From assembly GCA_017625935.1 (NCBI GenBank), contig JAGALA010000001.1, positions 34,473 to 98,472 of the forward strand: DNA of 64,000 nt, written 5' to 3'. Of this stretch, positions 8,356-62,851 are shown in pieces. How positions within the stretch are numbered: the first letter of the stretch is position 1; each line of letters opens with the position of its first letter. Position numbers and translations under genes: made by a program. Under the pieces are notes generated by a model, which was not told the origin of the DNA, did no database searches, and worked only from the letters and a program-made list of their open reading frames with translations. This stretch comes from Clostridia bacterium (GTDB lineage Bacteria; Bacillota; Clostridia; Oscillospirales; CAG-272).

Positions 8356-8495
8356 ATTTTCATACAATTTGTGTTTTCAAATTGATTCCATACAAGCATA
8401 TCACTTGATTCCATGCACCTAACGGTGATGCCATACAATGCGTTGCATTGATTTAATACAAGCCACAGGCTTGATCGATGATTTTGAGCGCAAAA
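8356..8495 (-). repeat. Hairpin array A: 6 different short hairpins joined by ATTCCATA-like 8-mers
   Basis: The hairpins are caattt..aaattg, caag..cttg, cacc..ggtg, caatgc..gcattg, caagcc..ggcttg and ttttg..caaaa. They are separated by attccata, attccatg, atgccata, atttaata. On the minus strand the linker reads TATGGAAT. Confidence 0.7.
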
Positions 8496-8522: not shown

Positions 8523-8580
8523 AGTATTTTATTTTGAAATATTATTCTTCTATGTCAGGGAGTTGGAGACAAGGAACCGT

Positions 8581-8616
8581 CCCCTGTCTTATTCCCTGTC
8601 TTAGTCCCCTGTCTTA
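8581..8616. repeat. Three tandem CCCTGTCTTA decamers spanning the stop codon of 8601..9239
   Basis: The sequence is cccctgtctta ttccctgtctta gtcccctgtctta. The third copy encodes the C-terminal KTGD plus the stop. Confidence 0.8.
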
Positions 8617-9239
8617 TCAGCGGAAGCGCCTATATATTTTTCATTTTCTACACATTCAAATTCAAATGACATTTTTTCCCCGTCTATATCGATGATTTTT
8701 AGAGATAAGCTTTGAGAAAGCAGTGCAGTTATTGCTTCTTCACTTTTTTTAGGATAGTTGATTCTATATATATCCGTCTCATTAATTACGATTATTTTTA
8801 CCTCTCCGCTTTCGCTCGAATAAGAATAACAGTGCCAAATGCTTAAATCAAATCCGTCATCATTATCTTCCTTCATCGAGGTATTGTAATATATCTGTGC
8901 TTGCTCTGCTTCTTTGAACTCATACGCAAATATCTCAAAGCTATATTCTTCACATTCATATTTTGCTAAATATTGATTTTCGTATTCCAAGCCGTTCAAA
9001 AATTCGTCTGCGCTTACTGCGTATTTTTCTACACTTCCGTATTCACAAAAGCGCTTTCCCATATTTTCAAGCTCTTCTGTGGTCTCGTATATGTAAAACT
9101 CATCAAAGCTATTATCCATAATTCTATTTGCGAGATATAAAAAGTTAGTAAACATCTCTAACGCACAAGCAGGAAAGCATAATAAAACAATAGCCAACAT
9201 TAATAATAATGCAAGCACTTTAGTAATCGTTTTTTTCAT
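8601..9239 (-). CDS. Secreted/membrane-anchored hypothetical protein
   Basis: The track ORF is 8601..9263. An AGGAGAG RBS sits 5 nt before the ATG at 9239 (MKKTITKVLALLLMLAIVLLCFPAC...), giving a signal/anchor helix with a lipobox-like FPAC. I found no family match. Confidence 0.7.
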   Translation of the reverse strand: MKKTITKVLALLLMLAIVLLCFPACALEMFTNFLYLANRIMDNSFDEFYIYETTEELENMGKRFCEYGSVEKYAVSADEFLNGLEYENQYLAKYECEEYSFEIFAYEFKEAEQAQIYYNTSMKEDNDDGFDLSIWHCYSYSSESGEVKIIVINETDIYRINYPKKSEEAITALLSQSLSLKIIDIDGEKMSFEFECVENEKYIGASADKTGD

Positions 9240-13668: not shown

Positions 13669-14493
13669 ATGTACTATAAGCATAATTTAGACTATAAATA
13701 TCCCGACAAGTGCGACGAGCATATGCTTGTGGTAAAGCGTGTGCGCGAAACGAATTTTGACGAAAATTACGACTATATAGACAAGAAAAAAAGCCGCAAG
13801 GTGAAGAATTTCTTTTTCGCATTTGCTATGAACTTAATTGTTTTTCCGCTCCTTCGCTTAACGCACGGGCTGAAGATTTACGGCAAGGAAAACTACAAGA
13901 AAAACAAGGATTTATTCAAAAACGGCGCGATAACGATTTCAAACCACGTTTTCAAATGGGATTTTATCTGCGTTATCAAGGCGATAAGACCGCACCTTGT
14001 GCGCTTCCCTGCTTGGCAAACGAACTTTGAGGGCTCAGATGCAAAGCTCATTCGTTGGGCGGGAGGCATGCCTATACCGACGCACAGTATGAAGGCGATG
14101 AGGCGCTTCGGGCGCGACTTTGAGGAGCTTTTGGAAAGCGGAAAATGGATTCACTTCTTCCCCGAGGGCTCAATGTGGTATTTTTACCCCGATATTAGAC
14201 CCCTTAAAAAGATGGTCTTTAAGTACGCGGTGAAATTCAACCGCCCGATAATTCCAATGTCGTTTTCGTTCCGTGAGCGAAGGGGAATTACGCGCCTGTT
14301 CACCAAAAAGCCGTGTGTTGACCTGCACGTAGGCGCGCCGCTCATTCCAAACGCGCAAGCACCTGCATACAGCGAGGTTGACCGCCTGCACACCGTCGCA
14401 TACGATATAATGCAAAAAATGGCAGGCATCACTCCCGATATGGAAAACTACCGCACCGTACAGGATTTTGAGAATTACCAAAAAACGATGTAA
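13669..14493 (+). CDS. Lysophospholipid (1-acyl-glycerol-3-phosphate-type) acyltransferase family protein
   Basis: 274 aa with the HX4D motif (NHVFKWD), an FPEGS motif and an N-terminal membrane helix. Confidence 0.75.
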   Translation: MYYKHNLDYKYPDKCDEHMLVVKRVRETNFDENYDYIDKKKSRKVKNFFFAFAMNLIVFPLLRLTHGLKIYGKENYKKNKDLFKNGAITISNHVFKWDFICVIKAIRPHLVRFPAWQTNFEGSDAKLIRWAGGMPIPTHSMKAMRRFGRDFEELLESGKWIHFFPEGSMWYFYPDIRPLKKMVFKYAVKFNRPIIPMSFSFRERRGITRLFTKKPCVDLHVGAPLIPNAQAPAYSEVDRLHTVAYDIMQKMAGITPDMENYRTVQDFENYQKTM

Positions 14494-14494
14494 C

Positions 14495-14610
14495 TGGCGC
14501 AAAGCGAATGAATTGCCCGTTGGGCATGAATTGCAACACAGTTGCATGAATTGACCCGCGGTCATGAATTGGCTATCGCCATGAATTGTTGTTTCACAAT
14601 ATGAATTTTA
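14495..14610 (+). repeat. Hairpin array B: six ATGAATT linkers (core CATGAATTG) separating unrelated short hairpins
   Basis: ATGAATT occurs at 14508, 14526, 14546, 14564, 14581 and 14601. The intervening hairpins are gcccgttgggc, gcaacacagttgc, gacccgcggtc, ggctatcgcc and attgttgtttcacaat. The array starts 2 nt after the stop codon at 14493. Confidence 0.8.
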
Positions 14611-14640
14611 ATTTCTATATTGCAACAAAAGCCATCCGCT

Positions 14641-14704
14641 GTCATTCTGAGTTTTTATCGGTGCGTACCTGCAACGCGGCAGGAGCAAGCCCCTGCCCTA
14701 CAAG
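14641..14704 (-). repeat. GTCATTCTGAG ... hairpin ... CTACAAG intergenic repeat element (single copy, inverted relative to the copies at 62.6 kb)
   Basis: The sequence is gtcattctgag-N26-ggcagg agcaagcc cctgcc-ctacaag. Its reverse complement aligns with CTTGTAGGG-hairpin-CTCAGAATG at 62625-62667 and 62805-62847. Confidence 0.65.
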
Positions 14705-14726
14705 TACACATCACACTAATAAAAAA

Positions 14727-14762
14727 ACAGCACCCTGTGTCTAATTTGGGTGCTGTTTTTTT
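14727..14762 (+). terminator. Bidirectional rho-independent terminator
   Basis: An A7 run is followed by the stem cagcaccc / gggtgctg and then a T7 run. Confidence 0.7.
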
Positions 14763-14970
14763 AAGTTTAGAGTTATGAGGCTCGCTTCTCTCGCCGTTAT
14801 GAGCTTGAGAAAACTCAAGCGTTATGATATGATTGCCCATATTGCCTAAAGCTTGGCGAAGCCAATCATAACGATGCAAAGCATCTCATAACTCATATCT
14901 TGCCCATTTGGGCAATCATAGTTTAGCGTGATGTCCTTGTAAGACATCACGCTAATTTGGGTGCTGTTTT
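14761..14970 (+). repeat. Element C: nested-helix structured segment with GTTATGA / TCATAAC arms, bounded by 19-bp direct repeats
   Basis: The direct repeats ctaatttgggtgctgtttt lie at 14741-59 and 14952-70. CGTTATGAT (14820-28) pairs with ATCATAACG (14865-73), and GTTATGAG (14796-803) pairs with CTCATAAC (14885-92). There are local hairpins at 14804-19, 14853-65, 14873-85 and 14900-15, and a 13-bp stem at 14922-55. Confidence 0.7.
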
Positions 14971-14973
14971 CTT

Positions 14974-25467: not shown

Positions 25468-25508
25468 AAAAAGGGGCTGTCGCATTGTTAAGCGACGCCC
25501 CTTTTTTA
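25468..25508 (+). terminator. Rho-independent terminator
   Basis: The stem is aaaaggggctgtcgc / gcgacgcccctttt, followed by a T-run. Confidence 0.75.
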
Positions 25509-25510
25509 TA

Positions 25511-25614
25511 GATGTGCTTTAGCACAATTTATGACGTAGTCAATTCATGAAAGCTTGCTTTCAATTCATGCAGCCTCAAGCTGCAATTCATCAAGCGTCA
25601 TATTATGACGCTTA
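25511..25614 (-). repeat. Hairpin array D: AATTCAT linkers (reverse complement of array B motif) separating unrelated hairpins; overlaps the stop codon of 25612..25926
   Basis: The linkers are AATTTAT at 25526 and AATTCAT at 25542, 25563 and 25585. The hairpins are gtgctttagcac, gacgtagtc, gaaagcttgctttc, gcagcctcaagctgc and aagcgtcatattatgacgctt. On the minus strand the motif reads CATGAATTG. Confidence 0.8.
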
Positions 25615-25926
25615 GCTTGCTTCGCGCTCTCTTTGCCTGTCAAGGTGCAAATTGCGGAAGTAAAGTGCAACGTCAATTGAGATTGCAACGAAGTTGACGA
25701 TGTAGAAAACAAAGCTGAGATAGAACACAAAGCCGCTTGAGCCCTGTGTGATTTGAATGATTTTGCGCACAATTCCGAATATGTATCCAACCAAAAGGAA
25801 AATTTCAAAAAACAGGCTTTTTCCCTTCGTCGTTCTCGAAATGTATGATTTTCTTATTGATATTGGCCAAGAAAGACCAAAGCATAAAATTGTAAGTGCC
25901 TCAAGCAAGTCTATTACTATATCCAT
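25612..25926 (-). CDS. PQ-loop / SemiSWEET-like 3-TM membrane protein
   Basis: 104 aa with three hydrophobic helices. FGLSWPISIRKSYISRTTKGKS resembles the PQ-loop motif followed by a basic loop. Confidence 0.5.
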   Translation of the reverse strand: MDIVIDLLEALTILCFGLSWPISIRKSYISRTTKGKSLFFEIFLLVGYIFGIVRKIIQITQGSSGFVFYLSFVFYIVNFVAISIDVALYFRNLHLDRQREREAS

Positions 25927-62490: not shown

Positions 62491-62851
62491 CTTTTTGACT
62501 GCAAATGCCGGGTAGCAAATTTGAAAACAATTGATAATCGTTTTCGCCGAAGTTTTATCAACAAAGCAAGGGGTTTTACAAACAATTTTGAATTGTGAGG
62601 GAAAACTACTATGCGGTGCAAAACCTTGTAGGGGATGGCGCCCTCGACGTCCCGTTTGCTCAGAATGGTCTCTTTTTGACTCCGAATGCTAGGTAGCGAA
62701 GTTGAAAATGATTGATAATCGTTTCGCCGAAGTTTTATCAACAAAGCAAGAAGTTTTACAAACAATTTTGAATTGTGAGGGAAAATGACTATGCGGTGCA
62801 AAACCTTGTAGGGGATGGCGCCCTCGACATCCCGTTTGCTTAGGAGGGTCT
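62491..62851 (+). repeat. Tandem duplication (181 + 180 nt) of a structured intergenic element ending in CTTGTAGGGG-hairpin-(CTCAGAATG)
   Basis: Copy 1 spans 62491-62671 and copy 2 spans 62672-62851, about 90 percent identical by eye. Each contains the stems TTGATAA/TTATCAA and ACAATT/AATTGT and the hairpin gggatg..cgtccc. Confidence 0.85.

What the first reader, a model, noticed from the sequence alone, without database searches (positions are those of the whole stretch)
14495..14610. Array B: six CATGAATTG-type linkers separating unrelated mini-hairpins, starting 2 nt after a stop codon
The pattern is the inverse of a CRISPR array. The conserved part is a short single-stranded-looking linker (ATGAATT at 14508, 14526, 14546, 14564, 14581 and 14601, spaced 17-20 nt). 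The variable parts are each self-complementary with different sequences (gccc/gggc, gcaac/gttgc, gacc/ggtc, ggc/gcc, attgt/acaat). Stem potential is therefore preserved while stem sequence is free.

The same motif in the opposite orientation forms array D at 25.5 kb, and a related motif forms array A at 8.4 kb. In each case the AUG(G)AAU-sense strand is the sense strand of the gene immediately upstream.

I cannot match this to REP/BIME, attC, CRISPR or terminator clusters. A 3-prime-UTR scaffold presenting repeated AUGAAUU sites is one hypothesis, for example a sponge or docking array for an RNA-binding protein or RNase, analogous in logic to CsrB/RsmZ.
Basis: seen in the sequence. Interest (0 to 1): 0.7.

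Follow-up and report, generated by a model that had tools for sequence, protein, structure and literature searches.

The report
Gut-1-like hairpin and linker repeat array
The array is real and belongs to a large family of small repeat elements in uncultured gut Clostridia (relatives of the function-unknown Rfam 'Gut-1' motif), made of private mini-hairpins joined by a fixed 7-base linker, and I find these elements tightly tied to genes for a small four-helix-bundle protein of unknown function rather than to the 3' ends of host genes.

Summary
ATGAATT occurs six times at 17-20 nt spacing (14508-14607), separated by different self-complementary spacers.

It is not unique. The same pattern hits more than 120 genome stretches, almost all from gut or rumen Clostridia MAGs. 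Across 296 distinct spacers, 88-94% of stem positions are Watson-Crick, against 29% when shuffled.

The class is already in Rfam as Gut-1 (RF01706, function unknown). Gut-1 is the best Rfam match to array B, but only at 17 bits against a cut-off of 50, so this is a linker variant.

New here:
- Complete elements are dyad-symmetric: four forward units, a centre, four reverse units.
- Loops are GNA/GNNA on the AATTCAT strand.
- G-U pairs are almost absent.
- Orientation relative to neighbouring genes is random.
- 67 of 71 related PF05635 (23S-rRNA-IVS / Avd-like) genes carry such an array immediately upstream.
- Homologues in four other phyla sit between inverted heptamer arrays.

Array B is missing from the orthologous locus of a relative with 88% protein identity. 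Neighbouring array C lies in an insertion flanked by a 19-22 nt duplication.

Array B is therefore most likely an orphan arm of a selfish repeat element, not a conserved 3'-UTR device. The mechanism remains inferred.

The parts
13669..14493 (+). Upstream host gene, an acyltransferase (PF01553). Its stop codon lies 2 nt before the array. It is context, not part of the element.
14498..14506 (+). Hairpin 0 (CGC AAA GCG), before the first linker.
14508..14607 (+). Array B: six ATGAATT linkers (14508, 14526, 14546, 14564, 14581, 14601). Between them lie five private hairpins at 14515-14525, 14533-14545, 14553-14563, 14571-14580 and 14585-14600. It is in forward orientation and no reverse half is present.
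14608..14719 (+). An unassigned 112 nt between array B and the terminator. Like the array, it is absent from the orthologous locus L203. It contains a sigma-70-like match (TTCACA-17-TATATT, 14593-14621) that overlaps the last repeat.
14720..14763 (.). A 16-bp perfect inverted repeat flanked by an A-run and a T-run, a bidirectional terminator-like hairpin. It is conserved in the relatives L203 and L209.
14763..14951 (.). An insertion carrying array C: GTTATGA linkers forward at 14772, 14796 and 14821, then TCATAAC linkers in reverse, which makes it dyad-symmetric. It is flanked by the direct repeat CTAATTTGGGTGCTGTTTT at 14741-14762 and 14952-14973. L203 has a single copy of that repeat and no insertion.
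25541..25592 (-). Array D: three ATGAATT linkers on the - strand with private hairpins. It lies downstream of ORF 25612-25926 (-) and next to a terminator-like hairpin at about 25470-25500.
8370..8480 (-). Array A: five hairpins that open with CA and close with TG, separated by 8-nt linkers (ATTCCATA and variants on the + strand). It is a related array with a different linker.

Best explanation
Array B is an orphan forward half of a Gut-1-like repeat element. These are short intergenic elements abundant in uncultured gut and rumen Clostridia.

**Shown: anatomy.**
- Each unit is a 7-nt linker (ATGAATT, of which TGAAT is unpaired) followed by a short GC-rich hairpin.
- The hairpin sequence is free, but its pairing, its T-A and G-C foot, its C-G closing pair and its loop type are all kept.
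- Complete elements have four forward units, a short centre and four reverse units.
- They lie directly upstream of, or around, genes for a ~118-aa four-helix-bundle protein (PF05635/TIGR02436, the 23S-rRNA intervening-sequence protein / Avd family).
- The elements come and go between close relatives.

**Inferred: mechanism.**
- The hairpins fold locally in single-stranded nucleic acid, in DNA or on either strand rather than in one mRNA sense.
- This presents or spaces the heptamer linkers, which are the sequence-specific part.
- The linkers are recognised by a trans-acting factor. The best candidate is the multimeric four-helix-bundle protein encoded beside the master copies.
- Alternatively or additionally, forward and reverse linkers pair with each other, giving the branched stem that surrounds the gene, as in a 23S rRNA intervening sequence.

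Gene-less copies such as array B would then be non-autonomous derivatives or remnants. Array B happens to be transcribed within the 3' UTR of the acyltransferase mRNA, and any effect there, such as protection against 3' exonucleases, is secondary.
For: **Family is real and widespread.**
My rough estimate of the chance expectation is below one.
- Viral contigs give 14 stretches.

**Structure is under selection.**
- 296 distinct spacers are 88-94% Watson-Crick at each stem depth, against 0.29 when shuffled.
- Formal covariation is strong.

**Link to Gut-1.**
- RF01706 hits arrays with GUGAAAU or AUGAUAU linkers at 52-76 bits.
- It is the top Rfam hit to array B, aligned in register, at 17.3 bits.

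**Dyad symmetry and strand-specific loops.**
- Element layout is forward units then reverse units.
- On the ATGAATT strand, loops are T..C 92 times and G..A 4 times.
- Upstream of PF05635 genes the loop bias flips between the proximal and distal halves: 82 vs 14, then 22 vs 90.

**Link to the protein.**
- PF05635 is the most recurrent neighbour family of the arrays.
- From the gene side, 67 of 71 genes have an upstream array.
- By my count from the table, about 54 of 71 have at least 4 spaced copies, against 5 of 290 control windows.
- Linker variants differ between protein subgroups.
- 10 of 11 plasmid-borne homologues from Cyanobacteria, Bacteroidota, Spirochaetota, Chloroflexota and Monoglobus lie between inverted heptamer arrays.

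**Gain and loss.**
- Array B is present in a 97%-identical relative, L211.
- It is absent in the 88%-identical, syntenic L203.
- It is replaced by a different hairpin repeat in L209 and L210.
- Array C lies in an insertion with a 19-22 nt flanking duplication.

**No transcription-sense rule.** Solo arrays are sense 22 times and antisense 18 times.
Against: - No PF05635 gene or remnant lies in this 64-kb window. The link to the protein is therefore by family, not by locus.
- No binding, transcription or transposition data exist.
- A 118-aa helical bundle has no recognisable nuclease or recombinase motif, so it cannot by itself explain mobility.
- The loops of array B itself (GTT, ACA, CGC, TATC) do not follow the family's T..C rule well.
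- In the GUGAAAU variant, the Rfam model pairs U with G at the foot of every stem. That fits RNA better than DNA.
- Linker variants tracking protein subgroups could reflect joint inheritance rather than recognition.
- The gene calls behind the orientation statistics are crude ORF calls.
Confidence: 0.55

Rival explanations
1. RNA device: the array works as RNA in the ATGAATT sense, either as a small RNA or as a 3'-UTR module. It would offer repeated single-stranded (A/G)UGAAUU sites between stabilising hairpins. A protein or RNase would be titrated or docked there. This is the first reader's idea and the implicit Rfam/Weinberg classification of Gut-1 as a non-coding RNA.
For: - Covariation supports the stems.
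- Gut-1 was rated a likely RNA by its discoverers.
- The GUGAAAU variant has U-G pairs at stem feet in the Rfam model.
- Arrays A, B and D in this window all lie downstream of a same-sense gene and upstream of terminators.
- From memory, Avd proteins bind RNA.
- The RNA fold of array B has a z-score of -2.3.
Against: - Solo arrays show no sense bias, 22 against 18.
- Complete elements are dyad-symmetric, which has no meaning for a single transcript.
- G-U pairs are 2 of 378 cells.
- Four-base loops on the AATTCAT strand are GNNA with no preference for GNRA.
- The array is not conserved at the orthologous locus.
- The orientation next to the PF05635 start codon is reverse in 53 loci but forward in 11.
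Confidence: 0.25
2. REP/BIME-like host element with no dedicated protein: clusters of small palindromes that spread by slippage and recombination. They would be kept because they stabilise mRNA ends, punctuate operons or absorb supercoiling. The conserved linker would simply be the copied unit boundary.
For: - The arrays are almost always intergenic, 144 of 154.
- Arrays expand by tandem duplication of two- or three-unit blocks (L143, L144, L153, L165, L167).
- Different hairpin-repeat families occupy the same spot in relatives.
- Several linker families coexist in one genome.
Against: - In REP/BIME the palindrome itself is the conserved sequence. Here it is free and the linker is fixed.
- Loop type and closing pair are strand-specifically conserved.
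- The association with PF05635 genes is very tight.
- No tyrosine-transposase (RAYT) type neighbour recurs.
Confidence: 0.15
3. Chance clustering, or a recent simple tandem duplication of a 18-20 nt unit that has no function.
For: Window-wide, the count of ATGAATT equals the shuffled expectation, 23 against 20.9.
Against: - Six copies fall within 100 nt.
- The spacers are unrelated in sequence yet all self-complementary.
- The same design recurs in more than 150 arrays from many species, with 296 distinct spacers.
Confidence: 0.01

Closest known systems
Gut-1 RNA motif (Rfam RF01706; Weinberg et al. 2010, PMC2864571)
   Same: - It has consecutive short hairpins of variable sequence separated by a conserved heptamer, (G/A)UGA(A/U)AU.
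- It comes from gut metagenomes.
- Its stems are supported by covariation.
- The flanks of its seed sequences show the same forward-then-reverse layout.
- Arrays that pass the Rfam threshold lie directly upstream of PF05635 genes in L200 and L192.
   Different: - The linker here is AUGAAUU. Position 6 cannot pair, which leaves 5 unpaired bases instead of 3.
- Array B has six linkers instead of four.
- The Rfam model scores array B at only 17.3 bits against a cut-off of 50.
- The original description gives no organism, no gene association and no function.
23S rRNA intervening sequences carrying an S23p/PF05635 ORF (e.g. Coxiella burnetii, PMC4990558)
   Same: - It is a selfish insertion in which a PF05635 ORF is enclosed by inverted repeats.
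- It is removed from the host transcript by RNase III.
- The arrays here, and the inverted heptamer arrays in other phyla, are inverted arms around or beside the same gene family.
   Different: - Array B is not in rRNA.
- It has no ORF and only one arm.
- Its arms are made of heptamers interleaved with private hairpins rather than one continuous stem.
REP / BIME elements with RAYT transposases (REPtrons)
   Same: - These are abundant intergenic palindrome clusters.
- A single-copy gene is flanked by inverted repeats, with many orphan copies elsewhere.
   Different: - In REP the palindrome sequence is conserved and is recognised with a GTAG foot. Here the palindromes are all different.
- The associated gene is a small helical bundle, not an HUH transposase.
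CsrB/RsmZ-type protein sponges
   Same: They present repeated short motifs on a scaffold of hairpins.
   Different: - In CsrB the motif (GGA) sits in hairpin loops and the RNA is a discrete regulated transcript.
- Here the motif is between hairpins, orientation is not tied to transcription, and no CsrA-type partner is indicated.
Cyanobacterial short tandemly repeated repetitive (STRR) heptamers (recalled from memory: Mazel et al. 1990)
   Same: - The period is seven nucleotides.
- In Planktothrix, Dolichospermum, Nostoc and Euhalothece plasmids, such heptamer arrays flank PF05635 genes in inverted orientation.
   Different: - There are no hairpins between the heptamers.
- The identity with the named STRR classes is from memory and was not tested.

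Membership tests
Rfam RF01706 Gut-1 | Score at or above the curated gathering threshold (50 bits) of the covariance model | tested here: not met
   Array B scores 17.3 bits, E 0.29. It is the best of 4227 families and aligns in register. There was no hit when searched within 900 nt or within the whole window.
Rfam RF01706 Gut-1 | Three or more consecutive short hairpins of variable sequence separated by a conserved (G/A)UGA(A/U)(A/U)U heptamer | tested here: met
   Array B has six ATGAATT linkers and five to six private hairpins. The model consensus is shown.
Rfam RF01706 Gut-1 | Stems supported by compensatory changes | tested here: met
   For the ATGAATT sub-family, 5 of 6 pairs show changes on both sides. 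Cells are 90.7% paired against 64.5% shuffled.
Rfam RF01706 Gut-1 | Acts as an RNA (the family type is sRNA) | not testable with these tools
   No expression data are available. The indirect signs (no G-U pairs, dyad symmetry, no sense bias) lean against it.
Arms of a PF05635 (four-helix-bundle / 23S rRNA IVS protein) gene cassette | A PF05635 gene within about 100 nt of the array | tested here: not met
   No PF05635 gene or fragment was found in the window or next to arrays A-D. In the family the link is strong: 67 of 71 genes carry an upstream array.
Arms of a PF05635 (four-helix-bundle / 23S rRNA IVS protein) gene cassette | The same linker and hairpin design as arrays that do flank such genes | tested here: met
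   ATGAATT and AATTCAT arrays flank the genes in L030, L092, L125-L132, L155, L161 and others.
REP/BIME | A conserved imperfect palindrome sequence repeated across the genome | tested here: not met
   There are 296 distinct spacers among 427, and the stems are free in sequence.
REP/BIME | An associated RAYT (Y1 HUH) transposase | tested here: not met
   Clustering of 809 neighbouring ORFs gave no recurrent transposase. The top family is PF05635.
CRISPR array | Repeats of about 23-50 nt, non-palindromic spacers of similar length, and cas genes | tested here: not met
   The repeat is 7-9 nt and the spacers are 9-15 nt palindromes. There was no CRISPR repeat hit above noise.
MITE-like mobile insertion | Presence/absence polymorphism with a flanking target duplication | tested here: inconclusive
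   Array B is present in L211 and absent in syntenic L203, but its borders cannot be defined. Neighbouring array C has a clear 19-22 nt flanking duplication, with a single copy in L203.
CsrB/RsmZ-type sponge | A discrete regulated transcript that titrates a known RNA-binding protein | not testable with these tools
   There are no transcript or binding data.

The most novel reading that the evidence does not exclude
Heptamer arrays, with or without interleaved private hairpins, are the cis-acting arms of a widespread and so far unrecognised kind of selfish mini-cassette. The cargo of this cassette is the PF05635 four-helix-bundle gene.

The protein, an Avd-like multimer, would recognise its own heptamer. 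Orphan arrays such as array B would be non-autonomous derivatives.

This single idea would connect three long-standing orphans:
- the Gut-1 RNA motif;
- the ORFs of 23S rRNA intervening sequences;
- possibly the cyanobacterial STRR heptamers.
Probability: 0.3. Interest if true: 0.85.

Novelty: new variant of a known kind. Interest (0 to 1): 0.62.

Why it matters
Gut-1 has been in Rfam since 2010 with no organism, no neighbour and no function. PF05635 proteins have been known since the 1990s as ORFs of rRNA intervening sequences and, as Avd, as partners of DGR reverse transcriptases, but the stand-alone members have no known role.

The results here give both a context:
- The arrays are common in named Clostridia MAGs.
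- They are dyad-symmetric and gained or lost like mobile DNA.
- They are the near-constant upstream neighbour of one protein family.

That turns two descriptive entries into one testable hypothesis of a protein and its heptamer site. It also warns annotators that such arrays after stop codons are not gene-specific 3'-UTR regulators.

Tried and rejected
- **Phage origin or phage N4-type hairpin promoters.** The window has no match in the phage collection. It carries housekeeping genes (dxs) and no tRNA genes. Only 14 viral contigs carry the pattern.
- **Rfam at gathering threshold on the window.** Nothing was found.
- **tRNA or tmRNA.** None were found.
- **CRISPR, attC and REP/RAYT.** Their defining features are not met (see the membership table).
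- **A PF05635 gene or remnant beside the window arrays.** None was found.
- **Long direct repeats around PF05635 genes as a transposition signature.** They are present in only 6 of 64 loci, and in L131 they include host coding sequence. This looks like duplication or recombination, not a clean target-site duplication.
- **G-T against A-C mismatch counts to pick the RNA strand.** The counts are 21 against 32, which is not decisive.
- **Literature searches.** I searched for hairpin arrays in Clostridia, for a PF05635 link to repeats, and for STRR with four-helix-bundle genes. None gave a prior description of the association. The library is incomplete, so this is not proof of novelty.
- **Structure prediction of the protein.** This was not attempted.

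Full report
**1. The observation**

Reading 14200-14900 and searching for ATGAATT confirms six copies on the + strand. They lie at 14508, 14526, 14546, 14564, 14581 and 14601, at 17-20 nt intervals. They start just after the stop codon of ORF 13669-14493, a PF01553 acyltransferase.

The spacers are all different and all self-complementary. The T that ends each linker pairs with the A that begins the next. The real unit is therefore a hairpin that opens with TG and closes with CA, followed by five unpaired bases, TGAAT. A further small hairpin at 14498-14506 precedes the first linker.

A k-mer scan finds only a few such spaced arrays in 64 kb:
- array B, the subject of this report;
- array D, with the same linker on the - strand (25541-25592);
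- an array with linker GTTATGA (14772 onwards);
- array A (8370-8480), which was picked up by the hairpin-chain scan.

Folded as DNA, the - strand of array B gives a clean chain of independent hairpins. The RNA and DNA fold z-scores are about -2.3 and -2.4.

**2. What the window is**

There is no phage match and no tRNA gene. The window carries dxs, a CotH-domain protein and other chromosomal genes.

Identical DNA occurs in two metagenome assemblies. The closest named homologues of the acyltransferase are from "Clostridia bacterium" MAGs.

**3. The array is one of a large family**

I scanned one genome per species for ATGAATTG-N6-16-CATGAATTG-N6-16-CATGAATT. Nearly all are gut or rumen Clostridia MAGs: Oscillospiraceae, Acutalibacteraceae, Christensenellales and "Eubacteriales". 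I estimate that fewer than one hit would be expected by chance.

Within these loci I found the following:
- There are 154 arrays, and 100 of them have exactly four exact linkers.
- Among 427 spacers, 296 are distinct.
- Every stem depth is 79-94% Watson-Crick, 86-94% at the five outer depths. The outermost pair is G-C in 271 of 296.
- Shuffling each spacer gives 29% pairing, against 88% observed.
- On the 63 distinct 13-nt spacers, the named structure has 90.7% paired cells against 64.5% shuffled.
- The same set has 106 cells changed on both sides against 37, and a covariation score of 0.58 against 0.12. All slid controls are far lower.

The pairing is therefore under selection or constantly regenerated, while the stem sequence is free.

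**4. It is a relative of a known Rfam family**

A gathering-threshold Rfam search of related loci returned Gut-1 (RF01706) on arrays with GUGAAAU or AUGAUAU linkers, at 52-76 bits.

The model consensus is CAaUGAAAU-hairpin-GUGAAAU-hairpin-GUGAAAU-hairpin-GUGAAAU. This is the same design.

Searched alone, array B has Gut-1 as its best match of all 4227 families, aligned in register. The score is only 17.3 bits (E 0.29) against a cut-off of 50.

Weinberg et al. 2010 say only that Gut-1 occurs in human-gut metagenome sequence, in no sequenced organism, and is probably a non-coding RNA. Their seed flanks already show reverse-orientation heptamers after the modelled part.

Array B is therefore a linker variant of a described but functionally unknown class.

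**5. Features that were not described**

*(a) Dyad symmetry.* About half of the arrays are one half of a complete element. A complete element has four forward units, a short centre (…ATGAATTGAATTGCC…GCAATTCAATTCAT…) and four reverse units, about 130-150 bp in all.

*(b) Strand-specific loops.* On the ATGAATT strand, 92 of 237 loops begin with T and end with C, against 4 that begin with G and end with A. The closing pair is C-G in 172. On the AATTCAT strand the hairpins are therefore C(GNA)G or C(GNNA)G. Among the four-base loops there is no preference for GNRA.

*(c) Almost no wobble.* G-U pairs account for 2 of 378 cells. G-T-type and A-C-type mismatches are equally rare.

*(d) No transcription-sense rule.*
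- The upstream gene is on the same strand for 71 arrays and on the opposite strand for 53.
- Among solo arrays between same-strand genes, 22 are sense and 18 antisense.
- Complete elements are found more often between divergent genes than between convergent ones.
- These counts rest on crude ORF calls.

**6. The neighbour**

I clustered 809 ORFs from the array loci. The most recurrent family, in 12 loci, is a ~118-aa protein:
- Pfam PF05635, the 23S rRNA intervening-sequence protein.
- NCBIfam TIGR02436, "four helix bundle protein".
- Its closest solved relative is PDB 2RLD, an entry with five chains.

The gene lies either between a forward and a reverse array (L030, L092) or immediately after a complete element.

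I then searched from the gene side. The metagenome collection gave 477 relatives, of which 80 were kept.
- Of 71 genes with enough upstream sequence, 67 have an array of at least three spaced copies within 260 nt.
- By my count from the table, about 54 have at least four copies. The figure for control windows from the same loci is 5 of 290.
- 29 of 78 genes also have a downstream array.
- The last linker usually lies 10-25 nt before the start codon, with only a ribosome-binding site between.
- The proximal half is in reverse orientation in 53 loci and forward in 11.
- Sense-strand loop types flip between the proximal 100 nt (G..A 82, T..C 14) and the next 120 nt (22 and 90).
- More distant proteins carry other heptamers: AAATCAT, ATTTCAT, AATTCAC, AATATCATT and GTGAAAT.

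**7. Other phyla**

A protein search of plasmid records found homologues annotated as "four helix bundle protein" in Nostoc, Planktothrix, Dolichospermum, Euhalothece, Gloeocapsa, Bernardetia, Chondrinema, Treponema, Chlorohelix and Monoglobus. Many are wedged between co-directional genes, for example hsdS and hsdR, an RND adaptor and its permease, or next to cas1.

In 10 of the 11 records I inspected, the gene lies between inverted arrays of a 7-nt repeat without intervening hairpins. Examples are (AAATTCA)n … (TGAATTT)n in Nostoc and (GTAATTC)n … (TTACGAA)n in Dolichospermum.

The constant feature of the gene family is therefore a pair of inverted heptamer arrays. The gut Clostridia add a private hairpin between heptamers.

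This is the layout of a 23S rRNA intervening sequence. In Coxiella that sequence is a selfish element carrying an S23p ORF, and RNase III cuts it out of the transcript (PMC4990558).

Earlier work noted PF05635 genes inside cas loci (PMC3936711; PMC10910872). That fits a hitch-hiking gene.

**8. Gain and loss at this very locus**

- A relative with a 97%-identical acyltransferase has the start of array B, with one loop change. Its contig ends inside the array (L211).
- A relative at 88% identity with the same gene order has only about 60 unrelated bases plus the same terminator. It has neither array B nor array C (L203).
- In the window, array C lies in an insertion of about 190 nt flanked by CTAATTTGGGTGCTGTTTT at 14741 and 14952. 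L203 has one copy of that sequence.
- A relative at 86% identity has a different hairpin repeat at the same place (L209, L210).

The arrays are therefore recent, dispensable insertions. They are not a conserved part of this gene's 3' UTR.

**9. How it most likely works**

The following are shown:
- the anatomy of the elements;
- selection on the pairing;
- dyad symmetry and strand-specific loops;
- turnover between relatives;
- the association with the gene family.

The rest is inferred:
- The elements act as DNA, or on either strand, rather than in one mRNA sense.
- The heptamers are the specific contacts.
From memory, Avd relatives are pentamers that bind nucleic acids.
- Alternatively, forward and reverse heptamers pair to build a branched stem. 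A complete element folds into a long imperfect hairpin of -70 to -76 kcal/mol.

Array B has only the forward half and no gene. It is best seen as an orphan arm. By position it is transcribed with the acyltransferase mRNA, since no terminator lies before 14720, and it may incidentally protect the mRNA's 3' end.

I put 0.55 on this reading as a whole. Within it, I put about 0.85 on membership of the Gut-1-like element family and about 0.35 on the protein-heptamer recognition step.

**10. Rivals**

- The RNA-device reading (0.25) keeps the covariation, the local 3'-UTR positions and the U-G feet of the GUGAAAU variant. It is weakened by the symmetry, the lack of sense bias, the lack of wobble and the lack of conservation at the orthologous locus.
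- A REP-like element with no protein partner (0.15) does not explain the tight gene association or the strand-specific loops.
- Chance is excluded.

**11. Novelty**

The kind of element is known as Gut-1. This linker variant falls below the Rfam threshold.

As far as my searches show, several points have not been described:
- the organisms that carry the arrays;
- the dyad architecture;
- the turnover between relatives;
- the link to PF05635.

The paper library is incomplete, so the absence of a prior description is not proof.

Noticed in passing
window 14741-14973: Array C has GTTATGA linkers forward and then TCATAAC in reverse. It lies in an insertion of about 190 nt flanked by the direct repeat CTAATTTGGGTGCTGTTTT, which is the 3' half of the terminator hairpin. 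The syntenic relative L203 has one copy of the repeat and no insertion.
   Followed up: yes
window 8370-8480 and 8580-8618: Array A has five hairpins that open with CA and close with TG, separated by ATTCCATA-like 8-mers. Just beyond it lies a separate 12-nt tandem repeat, TCCCCTGTCTTA x3.
   Followed up: partly
window 14593-14720: A sigma-70-like match (TTCACA-17-TATATT) overlaps the last repeat of array B. It is followed by 100 nt of unassigned sequence that ends at the terminator. This could be a small transcript. It is absent from relatives that lack the array.
   Followed up: partly
L209 2166-2360 and L210 (same locus in an 86%-identical relative): A different repeat occupies the spot of array B. 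Its units are GAGAACCCC, then a private hairpin, then AGGACCCCTTGT. The design is the same (fixed linker, free hairpin) with an unrelated linker.
   Followed up: no
L122, L125, L130, L132, L137, L140 and others (3' ends of rlmD/TRAM methyltransferase genes): The last codons of the methyltransferase gene (…HVE…) form the first long hairpin of the array. In L122 the reading frame runs into the array and stops at the TGA of the second linker.
   Followed up: partly
L227-L236 (plasmids of Treponema, Bernardetia, Nostoc, Euhalothece, Planktothrix, Chondrinema, Dolichospermum, Chlorohelix, Gloeocapsa): Four-helix-bundle (PF05635) genes lie between inverted arrays of 7-nt tandem repeats. Some resemble the cyanobacterial STRR heptamers, but that resemblance is from memory. 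Pseudanabaena (L234) is the exception, with repeats in direct orientation.
   Followed up: partly
L226 1501-1830 (Monoglobus pectinilyticus NZ_OY725736.1 80876-81205): An unannotated PF05635 homologue lies between hsdS and hsdR of a type I restriction system. It is flanked by inverted TAATTAGGAATGAG-type repeats.
   Followed up: no
L143, L144, L153, L165, L167: These arrays are expanded to 7-13 units by tandem duplication of two- or three-unit blocks with near-identical hairpins. This shows how arrays grow.
   Followed up: no
L127 and L131: The forward array is duplicated on both sides of the PF05635 gene, over 88 and 102 identical bases. In L131 the duplication covers the whole element plus the last 30 nt of the upstream gene.
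   Followed up: partly
L188, L191, L196, L201, L176: In the ATTTCAT-linker subgroup, a TATAAT-like box lies between the last linker and the ribosome-binding site. The array is therefore upstream of a likely promoter there, rather than inside the leader.
   Followed up: no
window 62491-62851: A 180-nt unit is repeated twice in tandem at 90% identity. It is unrelated to the arrays.
   Followed up: no
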